From: a virus
Taxonomy: Duplodnaviria > Heunggongvirae > Uroviricota > Caudoviricetes
Virus record (IMG/VR): IMGVR_UViG_3300037471_001733
Span: 22,201 to 86,200 of that record
Reading direction: 5' to 3' (one strand)
DNA length: 64,000 nucleotides
Part shown: piece by piece, positions 6,691-29,798 of the stretch
Layout of the letters: every line of letters begins with the position of its first letter
Position numbering within the stretch: position 1 is the first letter of the stretch
Notes under the pieces: model-generated
Seen by the model: the letters and a program-made list of their open reading frames with translations, nothing else
What the model was told of the DNA's origin: nothing
Databases searched by the model: none
Translations under genes and position numbers: made by a program

Positions 6691-6727
6691 TAGGTGATCC
6701 GTATCTGAGAGCGCTATTAGTTGCGCC

Positions 6728-7216: not shown

Positions 7217-7227
7217 GTGGCCTCCTC

Positions 7228-7256
7228 AAAAAGAAAAGCCGCCCGAAGGCGGCTTG
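7228..7256 (-). terminator. rho-independent terminator after the 145-aa gene
   Basis: AGCCGCC(7237-7243)/GGCGGCT(7248-7254) stem, cgaa loop, T-rich tail on minus strand. Confidence 0.7.
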
Positions 7257-7276
7257 ATGGTTGCAAGTGAAGCGGC

Positions 7277-13928: not shown

Positions 13929-13932
13929 ATCT

Positions 13933-14272: not shown

Positions 14273-14359
14273 TGGCGCGGACGGCTGGGCTCGAACCAGC
14301 GACCTGCAGCGCTGGTCTTTGCGAACCCGCTGCTTCTCTACCGGCTGAGATACGCCCGC
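14273..14359 (-). tRNA. tRNA-like gene (87 nt) with non-canonical 28-nt anticodon arm; anticodon not assignable; possible pseudo-tRNA
   Basis: Hand fold: acceptor GCGGGCG/CGTCCGC + G + CCA, D arm TCTC-AGCCGGTA-GAGA, T arm GCTGG-TTCGAGC-CCAGC. The anticodon region GCAGCGGGTTCGCAAAGACCAGCGCTGC is 11 nt too long. Confidence 0.55.
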
Positions 14360-14552: not shown

Positions 14553-15449
14553 CTATAACCCCAACTGCAGTTGACCAAGAGACTTGCTTCCCTTGGACCG
14601 GTTGCACCCAAAGCACTCGCACTGCGTGTTGCTATAGCTGTGTGGACCTCCATCGCGCAGGCTGACAACGTGACCAAGCTCCGGTGCGCCCTCAATCCTC
14701 TTGCCCATCTTCGACCTCGGCGTCTTAATGCCGCAAATCTTGCAGCGCCAGCCGTCGCGCTCAAAGACAGACAGCTTGTCCACCTTCTCGTACTCGCAGC
14801 CGAACTTTCTGGCGCGACGCCGATGCGTGGTGCCGCTAGTGGCTCTGTAACGGTAGCTCAGCTGACAGGCTATCGAGCAGTACTTTTGGCGCAGGTCGCC
14901 ATAGTCCGGCGTGAACGCAACTTCGCAGAAGCCGCACTTGCGAGGCGACCGGTCGCGGCTACGCTCTTGCTTCTTCCGATTGTAAACCTTGCTCCTGCAT
15001 TTGCTGCTACAGAAGTTCGCATCCGGCATCTTGGCCATGAAGTCGCGCCCGCAGGACGGGCTGGCGCAGACCCTGGCATAGCGCAGCTTATTCTGGCCGC
15101 GCTCCTTTTTCTCCGGCGCTGGAACGCACTCATAGCAGAACTTGCGCGGCTTGCCGTTCTTAAATAGTGGCTTTGGGTGGCGGCAGCCGTTTTCATTCCG
15201 GGTCCTGCACTCGTCGGAGCAATGACTGCGGCGCAGCTTCGTCGGCTTGAAGGGCATTCCACAGTAGGCGCATAACCGCGGCGGTTTCGGAGGCACGGGC
15301 GGATTCTTCCGTGGTCGTCCAGCGCCAGGACGGCGGCCGCCAGAGTTTGGACGCGGGCCACCGCGCTTTGAACGCGACGCCTCGACCAGTGCGCATAGCG
15401 CGCCTTTGCAGCCGCCAACAGACAGCCGCCTATACTCGCCTTCAACCAT
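14553..15449 (-). CDS. multi-zinc-ribbon protein with C-terminal HNH endonuclease domain (298 aa)
   Basis: Four CxxC...(F/Y)CSxxC repeats, Lys/Arg-rich, then WRCKICG...ELGHVVSLRDGGPHSYSNTQCECFGCNRSKG HNH motif. Confidence 0.75.
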   Translation of the reverse strand: MVEGEYRRLSVGGCKGALCALVEASRSKRGGPRPNSGGRRPGAGRPRKNPPVPPKPPRLCAYCGMPFKPTKLRRSHCSDECRTRNENGCRHPKPLFKNGKPRKFCYECVPAPEKKERGQNKLRYARVCASPSCGRDFMAKMPDANFCSSKCRSKVYNRKKQERSRDRSPRKCGFCEVAFTPDYGDLRQKYCSIACQLSYRYRATSGTTHRRRARKFGCEYEKVDKLSVFERDGWRCKICGIKTPRSKMGKRIEGAPELGHVVSLRDGGPHSYSNTQCECFGCNRSKGSKSLGQLQLGL

Positions 15450-15649
15450 GCTGACTTCCTATACAAGTTGGTATGGCCAGAGACCCGGTCGTGTTGCAAG
15501 CGCGACTGGGTTTCGCCATTTTGGCCTAGAACCAACAAATCTGCTGGACAAAACCACAGTTCCCAGGGCGCCAAGAATTTCCTCTCAAAACGCGCCTCTG
15601 AACAGCAAGGTCAACCGATGGTTTACAAGCCGAGGGCTGGGAAGAACTG

Positions 15650-16200
15650 ATTGGGGTATTGGGGGGTGCGCCTCGACTCTCCCCACGCCCAGCCGCGCCA
15701 GCTGTCAGCGCACGAGCTGCCGCTCAGCACGAGCTGCGCCGCTCGATCCCTGCTGGTGCTGGTGCTGCGCGTTGTCACGAGGGGTGCGGCGCCGCCTGGC
15801 TGTCGAGTGCCTGCGGTTATGTGGCGAGGGTCTGCCGCTGCGCCAGTGCACCCGGGCCGCTGCGCGGCCGTGCTCCTGGTGGTGGCGTGCTGGAGCTCCG
15901 ACCGATCGGCGCAGGCAAGCGCCATGGTGCGAACGGTGCACGAGGGAATGCGGCGCAGTGCTGGTGCCTGCGGCTTAGTGGAGTGCTGCGGCTTTGTGGA
16001 GTGGCGCAACTAGTGGAGTGCGCCGTGCTGCAGGGCATGGCGCCATGGACAGGGGTGCAGCGCTGCTGCGCCGCTGGTGCTGTCTCACCCGTGCCGATCG
16101 GCTTCCGCTGCAGGGGCGCTGGTGCTGGAATGCAGGCACCAAAGCAAAAGGGCCGCACGAGGCGGCCCATGGCGTGGAGTGCTTTGGTCTAGGTGCTGGC
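15650..16200 (+). repeat. non-coding, strand-asymmetric GTGC(T/G)G-rich array (array L)
   Basis: About 20 GTGC vs about 5 GCAC by hand count; local tandem units (GCACGAGCTGC x2 at 15709-15745; T(A/T)GTGGAGTG x3 at 15976-16022); no credible ORF. Confidence 0.6.
16141..16169 (-). terminator. rho-independent terminator ending the leftward small-gene operon
   Basis: GGGCCGC(16150-16156)/GCGGCCC(16162-16168), then CTTTTGCTTT on minus strand, 20 nt after stop at 16189. Confidence 0.7.
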
Positions 16201-16440
16201 GGCTTTCCGCTCCCGTCCTATACGGATGGCATGGGCAAGCGCGGCCATCTCCCGACCGTTGTCGTAAGGGCCGCGCGCCACCGGCTTTTTGCTGATGCCT
16301 GCGGCTGGCAGCAGGCCAACGAAGCCGGCTTCGTCCACGAAGTCTAGATATGTCATGGCGCCGATGGTCTTGACTGCGATGACACAAGCAACGCTGCCGC
16401 CGCCGATGGTGGGGCGCATGAAAAGGTCCCCGGCTTGCAT
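16189..16440 (-). CDS. hypothetical protein (83 aa)
   Basis: ORF, last gene of leftward operon; no motif recognised. Confidence 0.5.
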   Translation of the reverse strand: MQAGDLFMRPTIGGGSVACVIAVKTIGAMTYLDFVDEAGFVGLLPAAGISKKPVARGPYDNGREMAALAHAIRIGRERKAAST

Positions 16441-16452
16441 GGCGTCCCCTCC

Positions 16453-16746
16453 TCAGTGGGCCAGCAGATGCCGCACGCTGGCGCCATCCGGTATCCGCAG
16501 CATTGCCGCCACTGCATCCACGTATTCCGGTGCAGGCCGGCGCAATTTGTACTGCTGGTCTCCATACGAGTTGGGAATGGTGCGCGATTCAATCAAGCCG
16601 CGTTCCCTAAGCGCGCGGAATGCCCGGGTGTCATCTTCTGGCGCCACCTCAGCAGCGGCGGCAATGTCATGCCATGAGGGGAGACGGATAGTCCCGTCTG
16701 CATTGGTACGGGAAGCGAGCAGGGCATACAGACGATTGAGGTTCAT
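16453..16746 (-). CDS. hypothetical protein (97 aa), possible winged-helix DNA-binding protein
   Basis: Internal ATG 16746 chosen (upstream part of ORF is Arg-rich junk overlapping previous gene); FRALRERGLIESR... wHTH-like segment. Confidence 0.45.
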   Translation of the reverse strand: MNLNRLYALLASRTNADGTIRLPSWHDIAAAAEVAPEDDTRAFRALRERGLIESRTIPNSYGDQQYKLRRPAPEYVDAVAAMLRIPDGASVRHLLAH

Positions 16747-16757
16747 GGCGCGGCCCC

Positions 16758-17132
16758 TCAGATGTCCCAGACGCCATCCACGGTCGCGCCGTGCGCCGCC
16801 TCGTGGGCGTGCGCCGCGATGGCCGCCACGAGGCGCCCGCCGGGCGTTGCTTCCAACGTATCGCCCTCGCTGCACTGGTACTGCAGGCACCGCGCCAGCG
16901 AATGGAACCATGCGGCGGTCTGATTTGGCATGGGGCGCGCCAGCAGTGCACGCAGGCCCTGCAGCGGCTGCCGATCCTCCGGGTAACGCCCCTCATAGCG
17001 GGTTGCGTGGGCGTAGTTGTTGGCTGCACGCAGCGAGATAGCCGCCTGCGCCGCATCGTCGGCGATGCCCTGGGAAACGGCCCATTGCGCCACGGTGGCC
17101 ACGTGCAGATCAGAGCAGATAAAGCAAGACAT
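16758..17132 (-). CDS. hypothetical protein (124 aa)
   Basis: ORF with GGAGATCACACCATG RBS context; no motif recognised. Confidence 0.55.
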   Translation of the reverse strand: MSCFICSDLHVATVAQWAVSQGIADDAAQAAISLRAANNYAHATRYEGRYPEDRQPLQGLRALLARPMPNQTAAWFHSLARCLQYQCSEGDTLEATPGGRLVAAIAAHAHEAAHGATVDGVWDI

Positions 17133-17182
17133 GGTGTGATCTCCTATTGCCGCTCATGCTGGCGGCGCAGCGGGTTGAAGGG

Positions 17183-17452
17183 TTAGTCCTCGCGCGGTGT
17201 CTCAATTTGATGCGGCAGGGGTCGCCCCATGCCGTCGGCGCAGTAAAGGGACGTAGAAGCACCGCACGGCAGGTATGCCGGCGCGTCAATTGGCCCGCCT
17301 GCCGTCACATCCATACATGCCCCGTACCGAAATTGCCGCCGGTCTTGATGCAGATGGATCAATTCGACCGTCTGCCGTTGGACTTGCCCGCCGGTCACAT
17401 TGTGGAAAGCGCCAGCAGCAGCGCGGCGGATGGTTTCTGATTGCATGGACAT
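17183..17452 (-). CDS. hypothetical protein (89 aa)
   Basis: Starts at conserved junction TGAGGAGCGAACCATG (17450-17465). Confidence 0.5.
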   Translation of the reverse strand: MSMQSETIRRAAAGAFHNVTGGQVQRQTVELIHLHQDRRQFRYGACMDVTAGGPIDAPAYLPCGASTSLYCADGMGRPLPHQIETPRED

Positions 17453-17462
17453 GGTTCGCTCC

Positions 17463-17681
17463 TCAGTTGAAGCCCTTGTCCGCCTCGATCTGGCGCAGGA
17501 TCTCGACTGCCTCAGCGATCGGCACGAAGTCAGACAGGGGGTCAACAATCGTTTTCTTGCCCACGGTCACCAGCACGACGCGAAACTTTCCGCGCGCCGC
17601 CTCAGTGCTGATTCCGGGCATGCCGGTGGCGGCGCGCGCGGCAAGGGTGGCGGCTCGCAATTGCTTGAGTTGCTCAAACAT
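17463..17681 (-). CDS. hypothetical protein (72 aa)
   Basis: Starts at conserved junction TGAGGAGCGAACCATG (17679-17694). Confidence 0.5.
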   Translation of the reverse strand: MFEQLKQLRAATLAARAATGMPGISTEAARGKFRVVLVTVGKKTIVDPLSDFVPIAEAVEILRQIEADKGFN

Positions 17682-17691
17682 GGTTCGCTCC

Positions 17692-17931
17692 TCAGATACC
17701 GAAAACTTGATTGATCGCAGCGCGGCGCAGTGCCTCGCAGTGCATCTGCGCCACGGGTTGATTGATCTCGTCCACCACGTCAAGTGCATCGTTAACGGCA
17801 TCCATGAGATGCGCCATGGCGATATCTTCCGGGTTTGCTTCTACGTGATTGCGCAACTGCAGGCGGGCGCTCAGCAGGTTTTCGACGATCACGTCGAATT
17901 GCTTGACATGCATGGTCACAGGGGTGGGCAT
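17692..17931 (-). CDS. hypothetical protein (79 aa)
   Basis: Starts at related junction TGAAAGGTCGAGCCATG; helical sequence. Confidence 0.5.
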   Translation of the reverse strand: MPTPVTMHVKQFDVIVENLLSARLQLRNHVEANPEDIAMAHLMDAVNDALDVVDEINQPVAQMHCEALRRAAINQVFGI

Positions 17932-17942
17932 GGCTCGACCTT

Positions 17943-18176
17943 TCAGCGCATGTTGATGTAACCCGGCATGCCGAGTGCGCGCGCCAGCACGTTTGCCGCG
18001 TGGCGGTCTGCAAGGTTGCATATCAGGTACTTGGCCTGCGCGACCGCTTCGAAGTGCGCGCTCTGCGCCTCTTCGTATTCCTGATGGGTTCGATTGCTGT
18101 CGCCGATCATGTGCACGTGGCCACCGATGGCGGGCCGCAATTCCTTGGCGATGCTGATGGCAGTTCGGATATTCAT
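17943..18176 (-). CDS. hypothetical protein (77 aa)
   Basis: Starts at conserved junction TGAGGAGCGAACCATG (18174-18189). Confidence 0.5.
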   Translation of the reverse strand: MNIRTAISIAKELRPAIGGHVHMIGDSNRTHQEYEEAQSAHFEAVAQAKYLICNLADRHAANVLARALGMPGYINMR

Positions 18177-18186
18177 GGTTCGCTCC

Positions 18187-18318
18187 TCAGTGCGCCGCAC
18201 GAATGGCGGCAATGTCTGCATGGATCAGCGCGCGGACTTGCAGGCGGCGCACGAGGGATTGATCGTTGCGCATGGGTAGCAGAACCCGCAGCGCATACAT
18301 AAGAGAGAAACGAGACAT
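18187..18318 (-). CDS. hypothetical small protein (43 aa), first gene of leftward operon
   Basis: Below ORF-track cutoff. ATG 18318, stop inside the conserved junction; MSRFSLMYALRVLLPMRNDQSLVRRLQVRALIHADIAAIRAAH. Confidence 0.4.
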   Translation of the reverse strand: MSRFSLMYALRVLLPMRNDQSLVRRLQVRALIHADIAAIRAAH

Positions 18319-18366
18319 CTCAACCCCTTGCCACTGATTACGCGCGGCGCCGTTTGGTATGTCTCT

Positions 18367-18395
18367 AATGTAGGCGATACGACTACATGATGCAA
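18367..18395 (-). promoter_or_regulatory. candidate sigma70-type promoter with embedded operator (copy A, leftward)
   Basis: Minus strand reads TTGCAT-catgtagtcgtatcgcc-TACATT (17-nt spacer); spacer carries TGTAG-N9-CTACA inverted repeat. Confidence 0.55.
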
Positions 18396-18419
18396 GCCCT
18401 TGCGCAAACTTTTTTCATG

Positions 18420-18660
18420 CGCCATGGCGGCGCGGCTGCACGTATATTGATAGTGCTGCGCCGCATAGGTGCGGCTTTGCTTTGCCTGCTCGCTTTTGCC
18501 TGCTGGTGCTGCAGCATGGGCACGAGTGCCTGCGCCATGGATGCGCCGCACTGGTCTGCGCGCCGTGCGCCGCCTCGTGCTGATCAGCTGCGCCGCCGGT
18601 CGAGCTGGTGCGCGACGTTGAGCGGCTGCCTCGTGCTGGCAATCGAGCGAGTGCGCGACC
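18420..18660 (+). repeat. non-coding GTGC(T/G)G-rich array (array R), related to array L
   Basis: About 9 GTGC on plus strand; shares exact words cctgctggtgctg (13 nt) and cgagtgcctgcg (12 nt) with 15.65-16.2 kb, same orientation. Confidence 0.55.
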
Positions 18661-18667
18661 TGGCGCA

Positions 18668-18764
18668 CCCCCTCTGATGGAAACACAGGCAACCCCCTGG
18701 AGTGGAAACACAGGCCAGGCGCACCCTCTCCACGGGAATTACGGAACCCCCTGAGATGGAAACA
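18668..18764 (+). repeat. four tandem iteron-like units CCCCCT-N4-TGGAAACA(CAGG)
   Basis: Copies at 18668-18685, 18693-18710, 18747-18764 plus degenerate 18723-18739 (CCCTCT-N4-GGGAATTA); 24-30 bp spacing; array ends 20 bp upstream of promoter copy B. Confidence 0.65.
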
Positions 18765-18784
18765 GGAATTCACAAATAAACTAC

Positions 18785-18813
18785 TTGCGTTCTGTAGTCG
18801 TTGCGCCTACATT
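18785..18813 (+). promoter_or_regulatory. candidate promoter with embedded operator (copy B, rightward)
   Basis: TTGCGT-tctgtagtcgttgcgcc-TACATT (17-nt spacer); nearly identical to copy A in inverted orientation. Confidence 0.55.
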
Positions 18814-18872
18814 GGACACATCGCAGCACTGCTGCAGCGGCGCCACCCGCGACGAGTGGCACTGGAGTTGAT

Positions 18873-19547
18873 ATGTTTGGAAAATACGGCAAGCGGATTA
18901 CCGATCCTGCGGAACTGCGCGAGTATCGTTTGAGCTATGTCCCGGCCGCGCTGCGCGACCAGTGCCAGCACGTGAAGTGCAAAACCGGCGATGCTGAGGC
19001 GTGGATCTGGAGCGACAAGGGCCGCGCCTACGCGGTGGGTTTCTCCGGTCGCGGCAAACACCCGTGGTCGCGCAATGGTGGCCAGGGAGCGGCCTACTAC
19101 TTCAAAACCCCGGAAGCGCGCCGCTCCTGGGTTGCGGAACTGTTTGCAGACGCCATGGCCGACGCAAAGCGCGCCGAGGAGCGCAAGGCGCAAAAGGCCG
19201 CAGCGCGTGCAAAGCCGCACGCCTTGCAGGTGGGAGATGTGTTGCGCTCCTCCTGGGGGTACGACCAAACCAATATCGACTATTACGAGGTCACGAAGCT
19301 TGTCGGCTCACAGATGGTCGAGGTTCGGCGCATTGCCTGCCAGTCTGAGGAAACCGCGCACATGCAAGGCGTGAGCGTTCCCGCCCCTGGCCACTACATC
19401 GGCGAGCCGAAGCGTTGCAAGGTCTCCGACTACGGCAACCGCGACTCGGTCAAGGTGTCCGAGGTGGCGCACGCCTACAAGATGACCCCGCGCATCGTCG
19501 GCGGCGTCAAGGTTTTCAACTCGTCTAGCTGGACGGCCTACGCCTGA
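18873..19547 (+). CDS. hypothetical protein (224 aa), type I associate with plasmid/ICE accessory regions (memory only)
   Basis: ATG 18873 with GGAG RBS; basic/Ala-rich linker then VGDVLRSSWGYDQTNIDYYEVTKLVG... beta domain. Confidence 0.55.
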   Translation: MFGKYGKRITDPAELREYRLSYVPAALRDQCQHVKCKTGDAEAWIWSDKGRAYAVGFSGRGKHPWSRNGGQGAAYYFKTPEARRSWVAELFADAMADAKRAEERKAQKAAARAKPHALQVGDVLRSSWGYDQTNIDYYEVTKLVGSQMVEVRRIACQSEETAHMQGVSVPAPGHYIGEPKRCKVSDYGNRDSVKVSEVAHAYKMTPRIVGGVKVFNSSSWTAYA

Positions 19548-19554
19548 TCAACCA

Positions 19555-19575
19555 GGGCCGCTCATGCGGCGGCCC
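19555..19575 (+). other. GC-rich stem-loop after the 224-aa gene (weak terminator/attenuator candidate)
   Basis: GGGCCGC(19555-19561)/GCGGCCC(19569-19575), no clear U-tract. Confidence 0.3.
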
Positions 19576-19605
19576 CCTTACGTGAATTTCACAGGAGCAC
19601 CGACC

Positions 19606-19908
19606 ATGGGCACCACGACCGGCCGACTCTTCCGCACGATCCGCAGCACGGGACGTGGAAGCGACTACTTCGGCACCTGCGACCAGTGCGGCAAGCACAT
19701 GAGCGAATGCCACGTGAGCCAAGTTCAGCGCGAATATCGGCGCGACGATGGCACCACGTACACCGGGCCCGTGACCGGCGGCGCCTATGGGCATCGTGAG
19801 TGCTTGGTCAAGCACTTCGGCGAACCCGTCCCAGCGGTGACGCGCGAATCCGTGCGAGTTTCGCCCTTTACTGATCCGGCGCGCTTCCCCAAAACGCTGC
19901 GCGCCTGA
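19606..19908 (+). CDS. hypothetical Cys/His-containing protein (100 aa)
   Basis: RBS cAGGAGcaccgaccATG; CDQCGKH...ECH...HREC possible zinc site. Confidence 0.5.
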   Translation: MGTTTGRLFRTIRSTGRGSDYFGTCDQCGKHMSECHVSQVQREYRRDDGTTYTGPVTGGAYGHRECLVKHFGEPVPAVTRESVRVSPFTDPARFPKTLRA

Positions 19909-19944
19909 CCCCTTCCGTAGATTGCACAGCAGGAGCACCACACC

Positions 19945-20340
19945 ATGGGAGCAGCAGCAGAACACCGGGGCAATGCCCTGATCCGCAGGCAGGCCGGCGC
20001 AGCGCATGCCGCGCGCCAAGCCATCGAGGACGCAGCGCGCGCCGCGCAGGTGGCCGAGGACTGCAACGAGTTTGCCCGCCAAGCGTGGGCGTATCTGCTC
20101 GACCCTTCCGGCCTGCGGCAACCCGCAGTGGAGCGCGCAAAGACTCGGCGCGGCTGGGCTAAGCGCCATGCGGAACTCAGTGCCGCGCATTGCGCATGGG
20201 TTGATGCGGACCATCGCAACGCCATGGCCTACCTTAGCGCCTGCATCCGCCGCGCGAAAGCCGCGCATGCGCTACTCACATTTGCGCTGGGCGGCTGGAC
20301 GATCCCGGATCACATTGAAGTGCCGCGCGCTGCGGCTTGA
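19945..20340 (+). CDS. hypothetical helical protein (131 aa)
   Basis: RBS cAGGAGcaccacaccATG; stop embedded in TGACCCCTTCC motif. Confidence 0.5.
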   Translation: MGAAAEHRGNALIRRQAGAAHAARQAIEDAARAAQVAEDCNEFARQAWAYLLDPSGLRQPAVERAKTRRGWAKRHAELSAAHCAWVDADHRNAMAYLSACIRRAKAAHALLTFALGGWTIPDHIEVPRAAA

Positions 20341-20349
20341 CCCCTTCCG

Positions 20350-20405
20350 GCGCACTCGCAAGGGTGCGCATTGCGATGCAGCCACGCGGAAGCATCGCAA
20401 TGCGC
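20350..20405 (+). promoter_or_regulatory. two mutually exclusive RNA hairpins (attenuator-like)
   Basis: GCGCAC(20350-55)/GTGCGC(20364-69) overlaps left arm of perfect 14-bp stem GCGCATTGCGATGC(20366-79)/GCATCGCAATGCGC(20392-405). Confidence 0.4.
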
Positions 20406-20453
20406 CAGCGCGCATAACGGCGCCGTCCCGGCTTGAGGCGGCAGGAGATTCAG

Positions 20454-22262
20454 ATGTCAGCACAAGACTTGATTGTTAGGATCAACGCAGCCGCCCAGGT
20501 GGCCCCGGAGCAACTGCCCAAAGGGGCGCAGCCGCGCGACCACATGATTGCCTTTGAGTACACCGACGCCCACGGCACGCGCGGCTGCATGCGCATCCTG
20601 AACACCCGGGCGCGGCTGCTGGCCTTCGCTGAGCAGGTGCGGAAGAACGCGGCAGCATTCGACGGCAAGCCGCGCAGCAAGCCCGCCGGGCCGCGCAAGA
20701 TTGCCGGCGCATCCCCGCTTTCCACGGCGCGCGCACTGCTCAAGGATGGCGCGCGGGTTGAAGCCCTCGCAGCGCTTGAGGCGCGCGGCGGGGAGGTGTT
20801 TTTCGGCGCCGCTGGCGTGCCTGTGCTGCATCAGGTTGCACAGCGCGTGGAGCACGAGGGCCGCCGCTGGGTTGTCACGCGCTGCGCCGTTGATGGTCTC
20901 ATCTACCTCATTCACGAGGCGTCCGGGCTGTCAGCAGGCGGCAAGGGCTTGCCTGAGATGCGCAGCATTGCGGATGCCCTGGCGCGGCTTGAGCTCGTGC
21001 ACCGGGACGAGGCGGAAAACGGCTACCGGCAGCGAATGATTGCTGCGATCGAGCAAGCGGCGGATTACGACCAGCAGGCGGCGCGCGCGGCTTTCGAGGC
21101 GTGCGATGGTCTCAAGAGCAAGGATGCCGCGCCGGTGGCTCAGGAAGCGTACCAGCAGGCGCGCGCGCTGTCGGCGGCGCAGGTGGCGCCCGATGTCGAG
21201 CCGGCAGTAGATGCAGACCCCTCCCCGGTGGAAAGCGAAGCCGAGGCGGCACCCCCTGTAGCGGAAACGCCTGCGGCAGCTGACACCCCTGCAGCGGAAA
21301 TCGAGTCCAGCGCGCCGGCGGTTGCGCCAGCATCCCCTCCGGCGGATTCACAGGCAGGCGCTGCACCCCCTGCGATGGAAAGCGCGCAGCCTGCGCCGCT
21401 TGCCACCGCGCCAGGCCGATCGGATGCGCTCATCGCGCGGGCCATCGCTTGGGTTGCCGTAGTCTGGGGAACCGCCAGCGTGCCGAGCGTTGCGGACTAC
21501 CGCGCCGGCCGGTGCGATGACACATTCCCGTGGGCGGGCGGCAGCCGCGCCGCCGGCTATCTGACATGGGCCGACCTCATTGGCGAGTGCATGGCCGCGC
21601 TGGAGCGCGACGACAGCGCCGACCAGGCGGCACGAGACGCCGCACTGCAACCACCGACCCCCATCCGTAGGAAAGGCCCGCGACAACATGAGCAGCACAC
21701 CCCATCCCGTGCAACCCGCAGTGCCAACCGGCCGCGAGTGGTGGACCCGCGGGCTGCTCGACTGGCACGCCGAGGCGCTGCACGCCGCCCAGGAGATCGC
21801 CGCGCTGCGCGAATCACTGGCTGCGGAGCGCGCAATGGTCCGCGAGCTGCAGGAGGCGCTCGCTGCCCGCCGGCAGGCCGCTTGACCCCTTCCCGGGGAA
21901 TCACGGCGCCACAAGCTTGCCGCCCCTGGCGCGACGCCAGCGAAACCCGAGACTGCACCCATAAAAACCTGGAGCACAGCATGACCTACACCGAAGCCAT
22001 CCAAGCCCTGCGCGACGCTATTGCGCAGGCCCCGAAGGGTGAAAAGCTGCAAGCCTTCCAAGCCAAGCGGGAGAAGATAATAGGGGCAATGCCCAAGGTG
22101 GAAATCTGTGGCGGCGAGCAGTGCATCCGCTATCCCAAGGGCTACCGCTTTGACTGCGGTCGCGAGGTCCACACGGACTGGATGTGGCAACCGTTTGCCA
22201 GCGAGGAAATCGCCATGCGGCCTGGCAACCTGCCGTACATCCTGCGCATGCCGGCTGCCTGA
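20454..22262 (+). CDS. long open frame; N-terminal ~400 codons look like a real two-domain protein with Pro/Ala/Glu repeat linker; 3' end probably composite
   Basis: AGGAG RBS before ATG 20454. No in-frame stop for 1.8 kb; frame turns Arg-rich (junk-like) from about 21660 to 21980, then is in frame with the 93-aa ORF. Confidence 0.4.
   Translation: MSAQDLIVRINAAAQVAPEQLPKGAQPRDHMIAFEYTDAHGTRGCMRILNTRARLLAFAEQVRKNAAAFDGKPRSKPAGPRKIAGASPLSTARALLKDGARVEALAALEARGGEVFFGAAGVPVLHQVAQRVEHEGRRWVVTRCAVDGLIYLIHEASGLSAGGKGLPEMRSIADALARLELVHRDEAENGYRQRMIAAIEQAADYDQQAARAAFEACDGLKSKDAAPVAQEAYQQARALSAAQVAPDVEPAVDADPSPVESEAEAAPPVAETPAAADTPAAEIESSAPAVAPASPPADSQAGAAPPAMESAQPAPLATAPGRSDALIARAIAWVAVVWGTASVPSVADYRAGRCDDTFPWAGGSRAAGYLTWADLIGECMAALERDDSADQAARDAALQPPTPIRRKGPRQHEQHTPSRATRSANRPRVVDPRAARLARRGAARRPGDRRAARITGCGARNGPRAAGGARCPPAGRLTPSRGITAPQACRPWRDASETRDCTHKNLEHSMTYTEAIQALRDAIAQAPKGEKLQAFQAKREKIIGAMPKVEICGGEQCIRYPKGYRFDCGREVHTDWMWQPFASEEIAMRPGNLPYILRMPAA
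21218..21382 (+). repeat. five copies of CCCC(C)T-N4-6-(T/C)GGA(A/T)(A/T) motif inside the linker-coding region
   Basis: Copies starting 21218, 21252, 21286, 21334 (degenerate), 21366; 32-48 bp spacing; encode PSPVESE/PPVAET/TPAAEIE/SPPADSQ/PPAMESA. Confidence 0.55.
21688..21885 (+). CDS. hypothetical coiled-coil protein (65 aa), nested in another frame of the long ORF
   Basis: AGGAAAGG RBS; protein-like sequence (REWWTRGLLDWHAEALHAAQEIAALRESLAAERAMVRELQEAL); stop in TGACCCCTTCC motif. Confidence 0.5.
   Translation: MSSTPHPVQPAVPTGREWWTRGLLDWHAEALHAAQEIAALRESLAAERAMVRELQEALAARRQAA
21981..22262 (+). CDS. hypothetical protein (93 aa)
   Basis: RBS ctGGAGcacagcATG; protein-like composition. 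Confidence 0.5.
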   Translation: MTYTEAIQALRDAIAQAPKGEKLQAFQAKREKIIGAMPKVEICGGEQCIRYPKGYRFDCGREVHTDWMWQPFASEEIAMRPGNLPYILRMPAA

Positions 22263-22404
22263 CGCATTGTCCGGTGGCGCAGCCTTTGGCGTTCAGCGCT
22301 ATTTGAACAAGGTGCGCGGTTTAGTTCAGGCGTACTTGAATAGCGCCCCCCCATGTAGTGAAAACAGGGCATCAACCCCATCCAGCGGATACAGGAGTCA
22401 AACC

Positions 22405-22695
22405 ATGGGAAGTATCAACCTCGGCCGCCACCACGTCGCCATCAGCGATCAATGGACGATCTACACCCCTGGCCTACCTGGCTGGCAGATGCTGGGCGTG
22501 ATCACCCGCAGCAAGGGTGGCGAGCAGATCACGAAGGCGCTGGCCCGCAGCCCGAAGGGCGAGCTCTGCGCGGTGCGTGGGCTGTCAGCCGAGCCGCTTG
22601 TCCAGCGAAAGGCTGAAGCGGCGCTGGCGGCTGCGATGCGCGAGGCCCATCCGGTGGAAACAGATGGCACCCATTCCGAGGGAAACAGGGCTTGA
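22405..22695 (+). CDS. hypothetical protein (96 aa)
   Basis: RBS acAGGAGtcaaaccATG. Confidence 0.5.
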   Translation: MGSINLGRHHVAISDQWTIYTPGLPGWQMLGVITRSKGGEQITKALARSPKGELCAVRGLSAEPLVQRKAEAALAAAMREAHPVETDGTHSEGNRA

Positions 22696-22719
22696 ATATG
22701 TAGGTTAAGCGCCTACACT
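22692..22719 (+). promoter_or_regulatory. candidate promoter with embedded operator (copy C), apparently leaderless for the 76-aa HTH gene
   Basis: TTGAAT-atgtaggttaagcgcc-TACACT (16-nt spacer), TGTAGG-N7-CCTACA palindrome in spacer; ATG 22726 lies 6 nt after the -10. Confidence 0.55.
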
Positions 22720-22725
22720 GGCATC

Positions 22726-22956
22726 ATGAGCACCTTACCGCCGCGCACGCCAGAGAACATCAAAGCCTTCCGCCAGCGTGCCGGCTGGACGCAGGAGAAG
22801 GCATGCGAGATGGCGTGCATCCACGACCGCCAAACCTGGCGTAAGTACGAAAACGGCACGCTCAAGATGAGCGAAGAGCGCTGGCGGCTGGCGCACTTTA
22901 TGGCCAACCTGCACCCCGACTTCGACGTTCGGCCGCGTACCAAGGCTGCGGCCTAG
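22726..22956 (+). CDS. XRE-family helix-turn-helix regulator (76 aa)
   Basis: IKAFRQRAGWTQEKACEMACIHDRQTWRKYENG...RWRLAHFMANLHPDF typical XRE/MqsA-like HTH pattern. Confidence 0.65.
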   Translation: MSTLPPRTPENIKAFRQRAGWTQEKACEMACIHDRQTWRKYENGTLKMSEERWRLAHFMANLHPDFDVRPRTKAAA

Positions 22957-22989
22957 CCTTCGCCCTCTGAGTACCGCCGGGAGGCGGCG

Positions 22990-23334
22990 TCAACCGTTTG
23001 GGTTCTGTGCCAGCCAAGCCCGGATCATCGCCTTGACCGCGGCGTGCAGGCCGTGTGGCGCGTAGACGCCACGCACTTCCTCGATACCTCTTTCCTTGAG
23101 CAGGGCCCTTCTTGCTCGATTCCTCTCTGTCGAGCTCTTCCCCGAAGGGGCTTTCGCGGTGGCGTTCATGAGCAGTTCCGTGCCATCGATTTTCTTCTCA
23201 GGCAAGGAGCAGGGGGCCAGTTCGCACTCTGCGGGAGCATTTGAGGGGGGCGGTTTGTTCTCGACCATTTGGCATTGACCCGTCGCGCGCGACGGTCCAT
23301 CATTCTTCGCTTTTCGACGATCAGAAGCCGCCAT
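22990..23334 (-). CDS. small basic DNA-binding-type regulator (start uncertain; 55-114 aa)
   Basis: C-terminus STERNRARRALLKERGIEEVRGVYAPHGLHAAVKAMIRAWL resembles small plasmid/phage basic-region regulators; alternative ATG at 23169. Confidence 0.45.
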   Translation of the reverse strand: MAASDRRKAKNDGPSRATGQCQMVENKPPPSNAPAECELAPCSLPEKKIDGTELLMNATAKAPSGKSSTERNRARRALLKERGIEEVRGVYAPHGLHAAVKAMIRAWLAQNPNG

Positions 23335-23568
23335 AAGTTGTGATGCGGCCGGAGTGCGCTAGTTGCAAGAACTATCAATTGGCATTCTCAAGGCGCAAGC
23401 GTGTCTTGCCAAGACTTTGTTGCACAGAGAGCGGCATGGATGCCGCTTTTGCGTTTGTGCAATCACCTCGAAAGGTTCCTGCCAGAGGATGCCGCCGATT
23501 GCCCACTATGGGGCAGGAACCAGTTCCACAATCGAAGCGCCACGCACTACGAAGAGTGGAGTTGCGCC

Positions 23569-24279
23569 ATGGACTGCGGCAAGAGAAGAACATGGGAGTG
23601 TGGCGTGACAACGAACTCTAAGAGGCTTTCTGGTAGACCATCTTTTAATTGGTCTATACCTGAGCCAGAAGAAGTTAAAGAAGTTAGATTGAAAGCCAAT
23701 TTGTCTCAGAGAGAAGCTTGTAATCTTTCTGGGATTAAAGAAGTAATGACTTGGAGTAATTGCGAAACTAGGAGAGCCGATGGCACTCCTAAGGCCCGCA
23801 TGGACCCAATTAGATGGGAATATTTCCTTCTAATAGTTGGACAACATTCCAAATTCGTTATTCTTCCGAGACTCGGGGTTGAACAGCCAAGAGAGGCGGC
23901 AGCTTTAACTAGGAAAGGTCCGTCTCTGCCTGGGGAGAACATTACTTTCGCAGTCGAGAGCCGAACTAGTGAAGACGAGTGGCGCTTGGTAGAAGGCGGA
24001 CAGTTCACAGCTCTGACTGCGGCATGTGTGGCCATAGACACGATGGTTGCCTGCAGGAACCTAAATGAACTAAGGGTGTCGCGTTACTCAGGTGGCGACT
24101 TCGTGATGGCAGTGCATGGGCCTGGTGTCTCTATGGACGAAGGCCCGAAGCGTTTTACCCATGCAAAGGCTGCGCCATCTCGAAGGACTGGGACTGACAG
24201 GAACGGAGCAGACCCAGGAGACCCAGATAATGATGGAAATGGAAGCAGAAATTCCAATGGTTTCGACCCTCAGGATTGA
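23569..24279 (+). CDS. low-GC HTH-fusion protein (236 aa): N-terminal XRE-type HTH, C-terminal ~130-aa unknown domain, acidic/Gly/Asn tail
   Basis: VKEVRLKANLSQREACNLSGIKEVMTWSNCE...PIRWEYFLLIVGQH HTH pattern; AT-rich codons (AGA, TTA, AAA) unlike rest of window. Confidence 0.6.
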   Translation: MDCGKRRTWECGVTTNSKRLSGRPSFNWSIPEPEEVKEVRLKANLSQREACNLSGIKEVMTWSNCETRRADGTPKARMDPIRWEYFLLIVGQHSKFVILPRLGVEQPREAAALTRKGPSLPGENITFAVESRTSEDEWRLVEGGQFTALTAACVAIDTMVACRNLNELRVSRYSGGDFVMAVHGPGVSMDEGPKRFTHAKAAPSRRTGTDRNGADPGDPDNDGNGSRNSNGFDPQD

Positions 24280-24306
24280 CATTCCCCGAAATAGGGAAGC
24301 CCAGGA

Positions 24307-25227
24307 TCAGCCACCTTGGGCATGCAGGAACCTTCGCATTTCTCGCTCCACCTCGCCGAGCATCTCGCTCATGCGGTCAAGCATGTGGCCCGCAAAGCGG
24401 CGCTGGACATCGGTCTCGCCAAGCGACTCACGAACCAGGCCGGTGCCTCGGCAGAAGCGGCACTTCATCTGCAGCGCAGAGCCGTAGGCACCCTGGGTAT
24501 CCTTCCCTCCTTTCTTGCCGACGCGCGGCTGCGATTGAAGTACCGATCCGACGCCGCAGCACGGACCACAACGGGGATTGAGCCAACTGCGCAGCACGCG
24601 GCCTGTGATCGCCGCCACAGCCTTGTCGGACAGGCTGCTTTGCTGGGCTGCCTTGGTGACCCGTCGATGCCATTCTTGATGCCGAGCTCGCAACTGCTCG
24701 TCGGTCTCGCCCTGCCGCCGTCTCGGTTCGGCCGGCAGCCGGAGTCCCTGCAGCGGGAACTTTGAGGCTTCGATGGTTGCCCAGCGGAACAGCGCGTCGC
24801 GCGCCGACTCCAGCGTCCTCAGCTTCGACAACATCAGCGCTTGCTCGGAGATCGCCTCGCGCTTAGCTTGGTCGCGCAGCGCTTCAAGGTCGGCGATCTT
24901 CTGCTCAAGCACCTCCTTGTCCTGCGCCGCCTGGCTCAGCATCAGCCGCGAAACCTCCTTCGCTGCCGACTTGATCGCCTCCTCCAGTTGGATCTGACGC
25001 CTCAAGGCCAGCGCGTGATCGCCTTTCACGCCGTCCCACTCGACGTGCAGTCTGAGCAGCAGTGGCGCAAGCGCACGCTCGGCATTGCCGCGATACCGGC
25101 TCTCGACGCAGCCGGCGGCGATGAGCAAGTCGACGTCCGTGATGCGTAGTCTGTTGACTTTCAAGCGCTTGGCAGTGATGGCCTGGCCGTACCGCTCTTC
25201 AATGGTGATAGGGGCGTCGGAAGTCAC
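24307..25227 (-). CDS. coiled-coil protein with two DnaJ-type CxxCxGxG zinc knuckles; possible Q-like antiterminator
   Basis: RCGPCCGVGS...KCRFCRGTG resembles lambda Q CRDCHGTG...CGRCKGVG (memory); last gene of the early operon. Confidence 0.35.
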   Translation of the reverse strand: MTSDAPITIEERYGQAITAKRLKVNRLRITDVDLLIAAGCVESRYRGNAERALAPLLLRLHVEWDGVKGDHALALRRQIQLEEAIKSAAKEVSRLMLSQAAQDKEVLEQKIADLEALRDQAKREAISEQALMLSKLRTLESARDALFRWATIEASKFPLQGLRLPAEPRRRQGETDEQLRARHQEWHRRVTKAAQQSSLSDKAVAAITGRVLRSWLNPRCGPCCGVGSVLQSQPRVGKKGGKDTQGAYGSALQMKCRFCRGTGLVRESLGETDVQRRFAGHMLDRMSEMLGEVEREMRRFLHAQGG

Positions 25228-29796: not shown

Positions 29797-29798
29797 GG

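What the first reader, a model, noticed from the sequence alone, without database searches (positions are those of the whole stretch)
16141..24290. Self-contained bidirectional accessory module wedged between the early operon end and the late/packaging genes
An ~8-kb block interrupts the otherwise collinear minus-strand flow from the Q-like gene at 24307 down to the HNH/terminase genes. It is organised as two divergent operons.
- The leftward operon (18318 down to 16189) has 8 small genes and its own terminator at 16141-16169.
- The rightward operon (18873 to 24279) has about 10 genes and converges head-on with the early operon, leaving a 27-bp gap.

The block carries private regulatory DNA: three copies of one promoter-operator design, iteron-like arrays, and stereotyped GGAGC(A/G) ribosome-binding junctions. 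It also encodes two XRE-type HTH proteins and a small basic regulator.

I can assign none of its roughly 18 proteins to a phage core function. It looks like an autonomous cassette (moron island, satellite-like or plasmid-derived unit) with its own switch, and is a plausible place for an undescribed exclusion, defence or counter-defence function.
Basis: partly seen in the sequence, partly recalled or inferred. Interest (0 to 1): 0.7.

Follow-up and report, generated by a model that had tools for sequence, protein, structure and literature searches.

The report
Hypervariable self-regulated phage accessory-gene island
An 8-kb two-armed block of about 18 unknown small genes, with its own repressor-controlled promoters, sits between the early genes and the DNA-packaging genes of a temperate phage; the same slot in sister phages holds mostly different genes, one of them a known anti-CRISPR, so it is probably a swap-in arsenal against host immunity, not a foreign autonomous element.

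Summary
The described features are real. Window 16141-24290 holds a leftward operon of 8 small genes with a terminator. A rightward gene set converges on the early operon across a 27-bp gap. Three homologous promoter-operator copies, repeated C-rich/GGAAACA units and stereotyped gene junctions are all present.

It is not an autonomous cassette. The same bidirectional frame lies at the same place in two sister phages: an Azohydromonas aeria prophage and IMG/VR UViG_3300037423_002669. In both it sits between a conserved 306-aa early-operon-end gene and the packaging or early genes. Promoters are homologous and share the operator half-site TAGGCG/CGCCTA. Cassette junctions share the motif TGA-CCCCTTCC...CAGGAGC...ATG.

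Gene content is almost entirely different: 18, 30 and 33 genes, with one gene common to all three. Cassettes change order and even arm.

The sister islands carry an AcrVA2 homolog, an LPD29/LPD30 protein and DUF932. The window's first rightward gene belongs to a family found in 2,501 plasmids (92% conjugative), lying in the leading region of one pOXA-48-like plasmid examined.

Best reading: a hypervariable accessory island, probably counter-defence, under an Aca-like XRE autorepressor. Function is inferred, not shown.

The parts
16150..16168 (-). Intrinsic-terminator-like hairpin (7 G-C pairs) followed by TTTTGCTTTG; it ends the leftward operon.
   Evidence: sequence. Sister island L252 has the same GGGCC..TTTTGCTTTT type of terminators.
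16189..16440 (-). Leftward gene 8 (83 aa), unknown.
   Evidence: no family hit.
16453..16746 (-). Leftward gene 7 (97 aa), possible winged-helix DNA binder.
   Evidence: HTH_Crp_2 E 1.8e-5, 25 bits, below the cutoff of 27; no PDB sequence match.
16758..17132 (-). Leftward gene 6 (124 aa), unknown.
17183..17452 (-). Leftward gene 5 (89 aa), unknown; preceded by the junction CTGAGGAGCGAACCATG.
17463..17681 (-). Leftward gene 4 (72 aa), unknown; same junction.
17692..17931 (-). Leftward gene 3 (79 aa, acidic, pI 4.9), unknown.
17943..18176 (-). Leftward gene 2 (77 aa). A 67%-identical homolog sits in the RIGHTWARD operon of sister island L338, so this cassette has changed arm.
18187..18318 (-). 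Leftward gene 1 (43 aa, pI 11.9); the only island gene shared by all three islands.
   Evidence: 47% to the L252 49-aa gene and 42% to L338 513-641.
18359..18396 (-). Leftward promoter-operator: TTGCAT - N17 (holding TGTAGTCGTATCGCCTACA) - TACATT.
   Evidence: (I1).
18397..18663 (.). GC-rich non-coding tract between the divergent promoters; function unknown. It holds a terminator-like hairpin at 18455-18475(+).
   Evidence: (no gene called); no Rfam family.
18664..18766 (+).
   Evidence: Analogous + strand unit clusters lie upstream of the rightward promoter in L338 (2185-2296) and inside L252 (7115-7230).
18784..18821 (+). Rightward promoter-operator: TTGCGT - N17 (holding TGTAGTCGTTGCGCCTACA) - TACATT.
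18873..19547 (+). p1 (224 aa), PHROG 37844, unknown function. It has two beta-rich domains joined by a long helix. The family is widespread in phages and in conjugative plasmids.
19606..19908 (+). p2 (100 aa, 4 Cys/His-rich), unknown; its stop is followed by TGACCCCTTCC.
19945..20340 (+). p3 (131 aa). It has a 76%-identical homolog in the L252 island at a different position in the operon, carried with its upstream junction. Its stop is followed by TGACCCCTTCC.
20454..22262 (+). p4, one uninterrupted 602-aa ORF.
- N-domain (20454-21176): 65% identical to L252; family of 37 cluster representatives, many 600-1584 aa, Ala-rich, with no Pfam hit in the nine scanned.
- Ala/Pro linker.
- Small C-domain (about 21420-21650).
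- About 110 codons of out-of-frame-like composition.
- Then the nested p6 region.
21688..21885 (+). p5 (65 aa), in the +1 frame and overlapping the p4 ORF. It has coding-like GC1/GC3 and ends with TGACCCCTTCC.
21981..22262 (+). p6 (93 aa), an in-frame internal start with its own CTGGAGCACAGC ribosome site. It may be made alone and/or as the C-terminus of p4.
22346..22395 (+). Cluster 2 of two junction-type units, directly upstream of p7.
22405..22695 (+). p7 (96 aa). A 45% homolog precedes the XRE gene in L338 as well. Its 3' end holds unit cluster 3 (22641-22689).
22692..22719 (+). Third promoter-operator: TTGAAT - N16 (holding TGTAGGTTAAGCGCCTACA) - TACACT, ending 7 nt before the ATG of the XRE gene. 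The transcript is probably leaderless.
22726..22956 (+). p8 (76 aa), XRE-type HTH; the proposed repressor of the three operators (Aca-like).
   Evidence: HTH_31 29.3 bits; PHROG 3 repressor. Homologs lie near the 3' end of the L338 operon and in the L165 mini-module, where a TCTAG-N9-CTAGA palindrome is present.
22990..23169 (-). Small basic protein (59 aa, pI 11.3; 92 aa if started at 23268), opposite strand, in a low-GC segment.
   Evidence: (DUF7696 E 0.013, below cutoff).
23569..24279 (+). p9 (236 aa): an N-terminal XRE-like HTH paralogous to p8, plus an unknown C-domain. GC is 0.53. A 72% homolog converges on the 306-aa gene homolog in L255.
24307..25227 (-). Conserved right flank: a 306-aa last gene of the early-right operon with two CxxC motifs. 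Its 'Q-like' status is unproven.
   Evidence: 46% in L252, 63% in L255, 32% in L338, always converging on the island; no family or PDB hit.
14553..15449 (-). Conserved left flank: HNH endonuclease (298 aa), then HNH (13933-14214), TerS (13455-13955) and TerL (11753-13513).

Best explanation
Window 16141-24290 is the local version of a lineage-resident, hypervariable accessory-gene island in a small clade of HK97-like (HNH / P27-type TerS / TerL) temperate phages of Burkholderiales.

Shown:
- The island has a fixed frame: a divergent pair of sigma-70-type promoters, one arm reading toward the packaging genes, and a longer arm reading back to collide with the end of the early-right operon.
- Extra promoter copies lie inside the long arm.
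- An XRE-type HTH gene sits near the 3' end of the long arm.
- Every promoter copy carries an inverted repeat overlapping the spacer and -10 element: TGTAGGCG...CGCCTACA here, and the related TAGGCG-N3-CGCCTA in a sister phage.
- Genes are packed as cassettes separated by stereotyped junctions (stop codon - CCCCTTCC - short spacer - CAGGAGC - ACC - ATG). Cassette content, order and even arm differ between sister phages.

Inferred mechanism:
- The promoters are strong host-RNA-polymerase promoters that fire when the DNA enters a cell.
- The XRE protein (22726-22956), made from the operon and from its own, probably leaderless, promoter, then binds the three operators and shuts the island down. 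This is the logic of anti-CRISPR operons with Aca repressors.
- The cargo mostly neutralises host immunity or competing elements.
- The island lies within about 2 kb of the likely cos region upstream of HNH/TerS. In cos phages the terminase-distal end is packaged last and ejected first. So the island would be among the first DNA to enter the cell, a functional parallel to plasmid leading regions. This step is inference only; cos was not mapped.
For: Structure
- Gene calls and the terminator are confirmed.
- There are three exact operator copies against about 0.4 expected.
- The seven promoter copies of the two phages align with an invariant CGCCTA at the -10 element.
- The third island uses TAGGCG-N3-CGCCTA at three promoter-like sites.

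Conserved frame, variable cargo
- L252 (Azohydromonas aeria prophage) has TerL 84%, TerS 83%, both HNH genes and the 306-aa gene (46%) flanking a 16.5-kb island with the same two arms. Only p3 (76%), p4 (65%) and the first leftward gene (47%) are shared with the window.
- L338 (IMG/VR contig) has a 33-gene rightward arm ending in p7 and XRE homologs. It converges on a 306-aa-gene homolog and on early genes homologous to window 28728-30761.
- In the all-against-all comparison, only one gene of 18, 30 and 33 is common to all three islands.
- A 67% homolog of window 17943-18176 lies on the other arm in L338.
- p3 moved together with its upstream junction.

Junction motif
- TGACCCCTTCC occurs three times exactly, each at a stop codon in the window.
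- CCCCTTCC occurs 19 times on the + strand and never on the - strand of L252, against 0.54 expected.
- It occurs 15 times versus 1 in L338.

Counter-defence flavour
- The L252 436-aa protein matches AcrVA2 (PDB 7ci1) at E 8e-18.
- The L252 275-aa protein holds LPD29 (83 bits) and LPD30 (33 bits). Iyer et al. 2017 (PMC5512222) tie these domains to conflict proteins of phages and conjugative elements.
- L338 carries DUF932 (151 bits).
- The p1 family occurs in 2,501 plasmids, 2,298 of them conjugative. In a pOXA-48-type plasmid it lies between DUF4942 and the antirestriction/ssb genes next to mobA.
- Leading regions are enriched in anti-defence genes (PMC11541004).
- In other phages p1 again sits next to the packaging genes: in small opposite-strand units just upstream of them (L165, L167), and with a DUF4942 gene, on the packaging strand, in L166.

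Regulator logic
- The HTH gene lies at the operon's 3' end and inverted repeats lie in the promoters, as described for Aca proteins (abstract of PMC13551039, seen).
Against: - No window protein matches a known anti-defence or defence family.
- The functional call therefore rests on guilt by association with two sister islands and with plasmid leading regions.
- p8 is not a member of a known Aca family (Aca2_YdiL E 0.086; no PDB match).
- Operator binding, promoter activity and timing of expression are untested.
- cos is not located, so the first-injected-end idea is unproven.
- Genes on the strand opposite to lytic transcription are also typical of prophage-expressed morons that protect the lysogen.
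Confidence: 0.55

Rival explanations
1. A prophage-expressed defence or superinfection-exclusion moron island. The genes are expressed from the lysogen, independently of lytic transcription, to protect the host against other phages or plasmids. The XRE proteins keep expression at a set level.
For: - The long arm is antisense to lytic transcription and has its own promoters and an autoregulated XRE gene. This is the classical moron layout.
- p9 (HTH plus an unknown C-domain) and the divergent small basic gene look like a separate regulatory pair.
- Hypervariable slots in prophages often hold defence genes.
Against: - PADLOC finds nothing in the 10 larger proteins.
- The only recognisable cargo in the sister islands is offensive or establishment-type: AcrVA2, LPD29/30, DUF932.
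- The p1 family is concentrated in conjugative plasmids and lies in the leading region of the one pOXA-48-type plasmid examined.
- Most products are below 130 aa, typical of inhibitors and not of defence enzymes.
Confidence: 0.2
2. A core regulatory or late-function region. The leftward promoter would be the phage late promoter. The leftward genes would be the first late genes (lysis or packaging accessory), with the 306-aa protein acting as a Q-like antiterminator.
For: - The leftward arm points toward HNH/TerS/TerL and ends in a terminator that an antiterminator could override.
- No lysis cassette is recognisable elsewhere between the early and packaging genes.
- The 306-aa gene and the first leftward gene are conserved in all relatives.
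Against: - Apart from the 43-aa first gene, the leftward genes are not conserved between sister phages.
- None has a holin, endolysin or spanin family match or size. No protein in the island is clearly membrane-spanning (highest GRAVY 0.30). No function was found in Pfam or PHROGs.
- The 306-aa protein matches no Q family.
- One leftward cassette lies on the other arm in L338.
Confidence: 0.08
3. An autonomous or once-autonomous element (satellite, plasmid-derived replicon) inserted into the phage, with the repeated units acting as iterons of an origin or a partition site.
For: - Direct repeats at about 25-bp spacing lie next to an AT-richer stretch between divergent promoters.
- The p1 family is abundant on plasmids.
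Against: - There is no integrase, Rep, primase, ParA/B, relaxase or capsid-hijack gene.
- No flanking direct repeats were found.
- The units are all on one strand. They recur inside transcribed intergenic junctions and directly before start codons in the sister islands.
- The slot and frame are conserved with the phage backbone in three phages.
- GC content matches the phage except at 23.0-24.3 kb.
Confidence: 0.04

Closest known systems
Anti-CRISPR (acr) operons with an Aca repressor, and anti-defence gene clusters of phages and other mobile elements
   Same: - A strong promoter carries inverted-repeat operators.
- A run of small, fast-evolving genes ends with a small HTH regulator gene.
- Cargo differs between close relatives.
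- A sister island holds a true AcrVA2 homolog.
   Different: - It is much larger (8-16 kb, 18-33 genes) and two-armed, with 3-4 copies of one promoter-operator design.
- The regulator is not in a known Aca family.
- No window gene is a known Acr.
- The stereotyped CCCCTTCC junctions have no counterpart in acr loci that I know of (own knowledge, not searched).
Leading-region anti-defence islands of conjugative plasmids (Samuel et al. 2024, PMC11541004)
   Same: - Dense arrays of small uncharacterised genes are mixed with anti-restriction, anti-CRISPR and similar genes.
- They lie on the DNA that (by inference here) enters the new cell first.
- The p1 family, and its DUF4942 neighbour, are shared between such regions and these phage slots.
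   Different: - This is double-stranded phage DNA, not a transferred single strand.
- There is no oriT and there are no Frpo-type single-strand promoters.
- The genes are on both strands.
- Entry order is not demonstrated.
Phage 'accessory regions' and morons: hypervariable slots between conserved core genes (Silas et al. 2023 preprint, 10.1101/2023.04.06.535777; the moron concept of Hendrix and colleagues, from my own knowledge)
   Same: - The flanks are conserved and the content is variable.
- It has its own promoter and terminator.
- It sits at the early/late junction.
   Different: The slot itself has a conserved internal architecture: divergent homologous promoters, a shared operator half-site, a conserved first gene and a shared junction motif. 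It is not a simple insertion point.
Integron gene-cassette arrays
   Same: - It is a unidirectional array of short cassettes behind one promoter.
- Cassettes are reshuffled between relatives.
- A conserved short element sits at each cassette boundary.
   Different: - There is no IntI-type integrase in or next to the island.
- The junctions are 30-45 nt and lack attC-like imperfect palindromes; predicted folds are weak.
- Each cassette brings its own ribosome-binding site, in a fixed format.
Polyvalent proteins of phages and conjugative elements (Iyer et al. 2017, PMC5512222)
   Same: - p4-family members are long (up to 1584 aa) multi-domain proteins with low-complexity linkers.
- They occur in phage and mobile-element contexts, next to DUF932 in L254.
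- p4 shares a 44-aa segment with the tail of an LPD29/LPD30 protein.
   Different: - Neither p4 nor the nine relatives scanned contains a Pfam LPD or enzymatic domain.
- There is no evidence of virion packaging.

Membership tests
acr-aca type anti-defence operon | Contains a gene homologous to a validated anti-defence protein | tested here: not met
   No window protein hits any such family. It is met only in the sister island L252 (AcrVA2, E 8e-18).
acr-aca type anti-defence operon | A small HTH regulator gene is encoded in the operon, usually at its 3' end | tested here: met
   22726-22956 is HTH_31 at 29.3 bits and is the last gene of the co-directional run. The same position is occupied in L338.
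acr-aca type anti-defence operon | Inverted-repeat operator within or overlapping the operon promoter | tested here: met
   TGTAG-N9-CTACA overlaps the spacer and -10 of three promoters.
acr-aca type anti-defence operon | The regulator belongs to a described Aca family | tested here: not met
   Aca2_YdiL gives only E 0.086, 13.5 bits against a cutoff of 23.8. No PDB sequence match is below E 0.19.
acr-aca type anti-defence operon | The regulator binds the operator and represses the promoter | not testable with these tools
   This needs EMSA or reporter assays.
Moron / phage accessory region | Own promoter and terminator, separate from the phage operons | tested here: met
   The terminator is at 16150-16168. 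The strand is opposite to lytic flow for the long arm.
Moron / phage accessory region | Variable content between conserved flanking core genes in related phages | tested here: met
   Flanks are conserved at 46-84%, while only 3 of 18 window genes are shared with L252 and 4 of 18 with L338.
Phage satellite or integrative element | Own integrase, att repeats, replication or capsid-redirecting genes | tested here: not met
   None was found in four profile libraries. No flanking direct repeats were found.
Integron cassette array | IntI tyrosine recombinase next to the array | tested here: not met
   No recombinase lies in 13.4-25.8 kb or in the islands of L252 and L338.
Integron cassette array | attC sites (imperfect inverted repeats of 57 nt or more) at cassette ends | tested here: not met
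   The short junctions are 36-47 nt and essentially unstructured, with MFE between -1.4 and -5.9 kcal/mol.
Iteron-type replication origin | Tandem direct repeats next to a cognate Rep gene, with an AT-rich unwinding region | tested here: not met
   Repeats are present, but there is no Rep-like protein. The same units occur in transcribed junctions of the sister islands.
Lambda-type Q antiterminator (for 24307-25227) | Match to a Q protein family | tested here: not met
   No Pfam or PHROG Q family matched and there is no PDB sequence match. Only the position at the operon end and two CxxC motifs are suggestive.
Polyvalent proteins (for p4) | At least two recognised conflict-related domains (LPD, enzymatic) in one polypeptide | tested here: not met
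   Neither p4 nor nine relatives gave a Pfam hit. p4 shares only a 44-aa similarity with the tail of an LPD29/30 protein.

The most novel reading that the evidence does not exclude
The island is a phage-borne, integrase-free gene-cassette exchange platform. A short strand-specific boundary element (stop codon - CCCCTTCC - spacer - CAGGAGC - ACC - ATG), shared by different phages, would serve two roles. It would be a portable expression signal. It would also be the micro-homology at which the phage's own Red-like recombinase (Bet/Exo at 50433-52064) swaps, reorders and flips counter-defence cassettes between co-infecting phages. The tandem 'empty' units upstream of the rightward promoter would be scars or landing pads of that process.
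Probability: 0.2. Interest if true: 0.8.

Novelty: new variant of a known kind. Interest (0 to 1): 0.6.

Why it matters
If the reading holds, three sister phages together offer about 80 small, almost entirely unannotated genes. These sit in a compartment that in one case demonstrably holds an anti-CRISPR, so the set is a compact, testable library of candidate immune inhibitors from Burkholderiales phages.

The conserved frame gives a sequence signature for finding more such islands. It consists of divergent homologous promoters with a shared operator half-site, a 3'-proximal XRE gene and a strand-specific CCCCTTCC junction after stop codons. A junction-pattern search already found one new island.

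The signature also poses a concrete question about how phage accessory cassettes are exchanged.

Finally, the p1 and DUF4942 link between phage packaging-proximal slots and plasmid leading regions supports the idea that different mobile elements place the same establishment genes on the DNA that enters first.

Tried and rejected
- Nucleotide searches. Megablast of 16.0-24.4 kb and of 1-25 kb against 50,697 phage records found nothing.
- Protein searches that found nothing. p4 by tblastn against phages and plasmids. Close-relative scans of IMG/VR with the 306-aa gene, p4 and p9.
- Hijacked search. The word-index homolog search with full p4 was taken over by its Ala/Pro linker and returned only itself. 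The N-domain alone in the exhaustive HMMER search worked.
- Profile libraries. Pfam, PHROGs, PADLOC and NCBIfam gave no function for 16 of 18 proteins.
- Fold searches. The two good models gave only generic small beta-barrel matches.
- AcrVA2 check. My Pfam copy did not reproduce the precomputed 'AcrVA2-like' tag. I confirmed it instead against the PDB sequence.
- Occlusion hairpin idea, rejected. I tested whether CCCCTTCC pairs with the downstream Shine-Dalgarno sequence to form an occluding hairpin. Predicted folds of 12 junctions are weak and inconsistent.
- Pattern-scan noise. The junction scan of IMG/VR gave 82 single hits, mostly chance. Only strand-biased multi-copy loci (L320, which is A. 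aeria, and L310) were real.
- Context of p1. More distant p1 homologs sit in varied early-region contexts, so the rule 'p1 is always next to terminase' was dropped.
- RNA families. Rfam gave no family for the non-coding tracts.
- Source contig. A look-up of the window's own 120-kb source contig failed.

Full report
**Context**

The 64-kb window is one large lambdoid/HK97-like temperate phage genome from a GC-rich (about 64%) betaproteobacterium.
- On the minus strand, from 13955 down, lie a P27-type small terminase, the large terminase (11753-13513), the portal and head and tail genes.
- Two HNH endonuclease genes lie just upstream (13933-14214 and 14553-15449).
- A minus-strand early-right operon runs from about 43970 down to 24307. 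It holds an O-like initiator at 41577-42632 and a DnaC-like loader at 40817-41599.
- A plus-strand early-left operon runs from 44371. It holds a cI-like gene, Bet at 50433, Exo at 51378 and a DpdA-like transglycosylase at 52497.
- The closest genome is an Azohydromonas aeria prophage, with TerL 84% identical.
- No cultured phage is similar at the DNA level.

Yes. My codon-usage gene calls agree gene for gene with the calls on an identical 13.9-kb Logan contig.
- The leftward operon has eight genes of 43-124 aa (18318 down to 16189). It ends at a seven-G-C-pair hairpin plus T-run at 16150-16168.
- The rightward set starts at 18873, and its last plus-strand gene stops at 24279. That is 27 bp from the stop of the converging 306-aa gene.
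- The rightward side is not a single operon. An internal promoter precedes the XRE gene. A small basic gene lies on the minus strand at 22990-23169. The last gene (23569-24279) sits in a GC 0.53 segment.

The three promoter-operator copies are exact.
- TGTAG-N9-CTACA occurs only at 18369-18387, 18793-18811 and 22699-22717 in the whole window. With up to one mismatch there are 4 matches against 0.39 expected, and 0 of 100 shuffles reach that.
- Each copy is embedded in a TTGCRT/TTGAAT - 16 or 17 nt - TACAYT promoter.
- The third copy ends 7 nt before the ATG of the XRE gene, so that mRNA is probably leaderless (inference from spacing).

The junction CTGAGGAGCGAACCATG occurs three times exactly in the left arm. 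CAGGAGCACC..ACCATG occurs in the right arm.

One XRE protein passes the Pfam threshold (HTH_31). The N-terminus of the 236-aa protein is its paralog.

**What the genes are**

Sixteen of the eighteen products have no hit in Pfam, PHROGs, PADLOC or NCBIfam.

p1 (18873-19547) is the exception in being widespread.
- It matches PHROG 37844.
- It has 520 relatives in IMG/VR and 285 clusters in the protein collection, all unnamed.
- Its family occurs in 2,501 plasmids, of which 2,298 are conjugative.
- In a pOXA-48-type IncL/M plasmid the homolog lies directly after a DUF4942 gene. It is a few genes from an antirestriction gene, ssb and mobA, which is the leading region.
- In phage L166 a p1 homolog is followed by a DUF4942 gene immediately upstream of HNH-TerS-TerL.
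- In L165 and L167 it forms a small opposite-strand unit just upstream of the packaging genes.
- More distant homologs sit in other early-region contexts.

The N-domain of p4 (20454-21176) defines a family of 37 cluster representatives.
- Many are 600-1584-aa Ala-rich multi-domain proteins; none of the nine scanned has a Pfam domain.
- One of them follows a DUF932 gene in another phage-like locus.
- Its model (pLDDT 90) again matches only generic barrels.

**The decisive comparison**

*Azohydromonas aeria prophage (L252).* Retrieved around its p4 homolog, it shows the same anatomy in the same place.
- The order is TerL, TerS, HNH, HNH, then a leftward arm, a divergent control region and a 12-kb rightward arm of 20 genes.
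- The rightward arm collides with a 321-aa gene that is 46% identical to window 24307-25227.
- Between these conserved flanks only three genes are shared with the window: p3 (76%, at a different position), p4 (65%) and the 43-49-aa first leftward gene (47%).
- The arm's penultimate gene is a homolog of the anti-CRISPR AcrVA2 (PDB 7ci1, E 8e-18).
- Its left arm encodes an LPD29+LPD30 protein (83 and 33 bits). Iyer et al. describe these domains as associated with conflict proteins of phages and conjugative elements (PMC5512222).

*IMG/VR UViG_3300037423_002669 (L338).* I found this third island by searching IMG/VR for the junction motif.
- It has a 33-gene rightward arm including DUF932 and DUF6011.
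- The arm ends with homologs of p7 and the XRE protein.
- It converges on a homolog of the 306-aa gene and on early genes homologous to window 28728-30761.
- It holds a 67% homolog of the window's leftward gene 17943-18176, but on the rightward arm.

*Short JGI contig (L255).* It shows the 306-aa gene (63%) converging on a p9 homolog (72%).

*Miniature version (L165).* A more distant phage has a p1 homolog facing a three-gene unit that ends in a p8-like XRE gene. A TCTAG-N9-CTAGA palindrome lies between them, and an HNH gene is next.

*Other TerL relatives.* Among about 55 of them with enough upstream sequence, the early-to-packaging flow is otherwise collinear, with at most a few opposite-strand genes.

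**Shared regulatory and junction DNA**

The seven promoter copies of the window and L252 align with an invariant CGCCTA at the -10 element.

L338 uses TAGGCG-N3-CGCCTA at three promoter-like sites. One is in the divergent region, one precedes the first rightward gene and one precedes the p7-XRE pair. The window operator TGTAGGCG...CGCCTACA contains the same half-site.

In the rightward arms nearly every gene is followed by the same design: stop codon, CCCCTTCC, a short spacer, (TTTGA)CAGGAGC, ACC, ATG.
- TGACCCCTTCC occurs exactly three times in the window, each at a stop codon: 19906, 20338 and 21883.
- CCCCTTCC occurs 19 times on the plus strand and never on the minus strand of L252, against 0.54 expected.
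- It occurs 15 times versus 1 in L338.

- Near-identical units (CCCCTTGCAGTGGAAACACGA-ATG) directly precede a start codon in L252.
- Unit clusters lie upstream of the rightward promoter in L338.
- Because they are strictly one-stranded and mostly in transcribed spacers, a DNA iteron or origin role is unlikely.
- What they do is unexplained. Simple hairpin or SD-occlusion models are not supported by folding.

**Interpretation**

*Shown.* The block is a lineage-resident compartment with a conserved frame and rapidly turning-over cargo. It is not a foreign autonomous element and not a set of conserved nin, late or lysis genes.

*Inferred.*
- The XRE protein represses the three operators, so the island gives a burst of expression on entry or induction followed by shut-off, as in acr-aca operons (abstract of PMC13551039).
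- The cargo is mainly counter-defence or establishment functions. This rests on AcrVA2, LPD29/30 and DUF932 in the sister islands. It also rests on the p1 and DUF4942 link to plasmid leading regions, which are enriched in anti-defence genes (PMC11541004).
- Fast-evolving phage accessory genes are thought mostly to antagonise host defences or other viruses (preprint 10.1101/2023.04.06.535777, abstract seen).
- The island adjoins the probable cos region upstream of HNH/TerS. The terminase-distal end of cos phages is packaged last and ejected first (established for lambda; my own knowledge). So it may be among the first DNA to enter. cos was not mapped, so this stays a hypothesis.

*Main rival.* The genes serve the lysogen as defence or exclusion morons. 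The opposite-strand orientation fits that rival. The recognisable cargo does not.

**Open points**

- The p4 ORF has no stop for 602 codons. Its codons from about 21650 to 21980 have out-of-frame-like composition.
- That stretch overlaps a coding-like +1-frame ORF (21688-21885), which ends in the canonical junction. A further domain follows in frame with its own ribosome site.
- The A. aeria ortholog behaves the same way (773-aa ORF).
- Three options remain undecided: a long polyvalent-style fusion, a recoding event, or three separate products.
- The GC-rich repeat-like non-coding tracts are also unexplained: window 15650-16140 and 18397-18663, and L338 about 1740-2090.

**Verdict**

The feature is a new variant of a known kind: a phage accessory or anti-defence island with an Aca-like circuit. 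It is made more interesting by its conserved two-armed frame and its strand-specific cassette junction. Interest 0.6.

Noticed in passing
window 14276-14359 (-): A tRNA-like gene lies between the two HNH genes. It scores 48.7 bits with Rfam tRNA (gathering score 29) and has a complete acceptor, D and T arm. Its anticodon-loop region is 18 nt, not 7. ARAGORN and the first Rfam gathering run both missed it. It could be a tRNA with an insertion or intron, or a decayed tRNA.
   Followed up: partly
window 20454-22262: The p4 ORF runs 602 codons with no stop. It passes through about 110 codons of non-coding-like composition that overlap a coding-like +1-frame ORF (21688-21885). It then continues in frame into another domain. 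The A. aeria ortholog (773-aa ORF) does the same. Possible readings are a fusion, a recoding event, or nested genes.
   Followed up: partly
window 15650-16140 and 18397-18663; L338 about 1740-2090; L252 about 6640-7280: GC-rich non-coding tracts full of short CAGCTG / GCACC / GGTGC-type repeats lie next to the island arms in all three phages. No Rfam family matches and there is no conservation at the sequence level.
   Followed up: no
window 52497-53357 (+): A DpdA-like queuine tRNA-ribosyltransferase homolog (PHROG 887, E 1e-68) lies in the early-left operon. It suggests 7-deazaguanine modification of the phage DNA, which would be a second anti-restriction device.
   Followed up: no
window 50433-52064 (+): A Bet-like annealing protein and an Exo-like exonuclease form a Red-type recombination pair. 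They are a candidate engine for exchange of cassettes at the short conserved junctions.
   Followed up: no
window 15406-15436 (+): A fourth match to the island's promoter template (TTGCAG - N - CGCCTATACT) lies inside the start of the HNH gene and points toward the island. Its spacer is 19 nt and it has no palindrome, so it is probably not functional.
   Followed up: no
window 23000-24300: This segment has GC 0.53 against about 0.64 elsewhere. It holds the small basic gene and p9. Even so, the p9 / 306-aa-gene convergent pair is conserved (72% and 63%) on JGI contig L255, where a hairpin lies between the two genes.
   Followed up: partly
L253 4861-9500 and L254: Another phage-like locus has a 1531-aa p4-family protein downstream of DUF932. 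It is followed by 13 small genes that converge on a RusA-containing early operon. It uses its own stereotyped junction, TGACCCCC..ACGCATTCACAGA..GGAGAAAC-ATG. Repeated cassette junctions may therefore be a general feature of such arms.
   Followed up: partly
window 25279-25749 (-): A 156-aa multi-pass membrane protein (GRAVY 0.66) lies just upstream of the 306-aa gene. It has no family hit. No lysis cassette was recognised anywhere between the early and packaging genes.
   Followed up: no
window 15444-15517 (+): A weak, below-threshold Rfam match to the SymR antitoxin RNA (31 bits against a gathering score of 61, E 0.004) overlaps the first few codons of the HNH gene (start at 15449) and extends upstream of it. 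It is probably chance.
   Followed up: no
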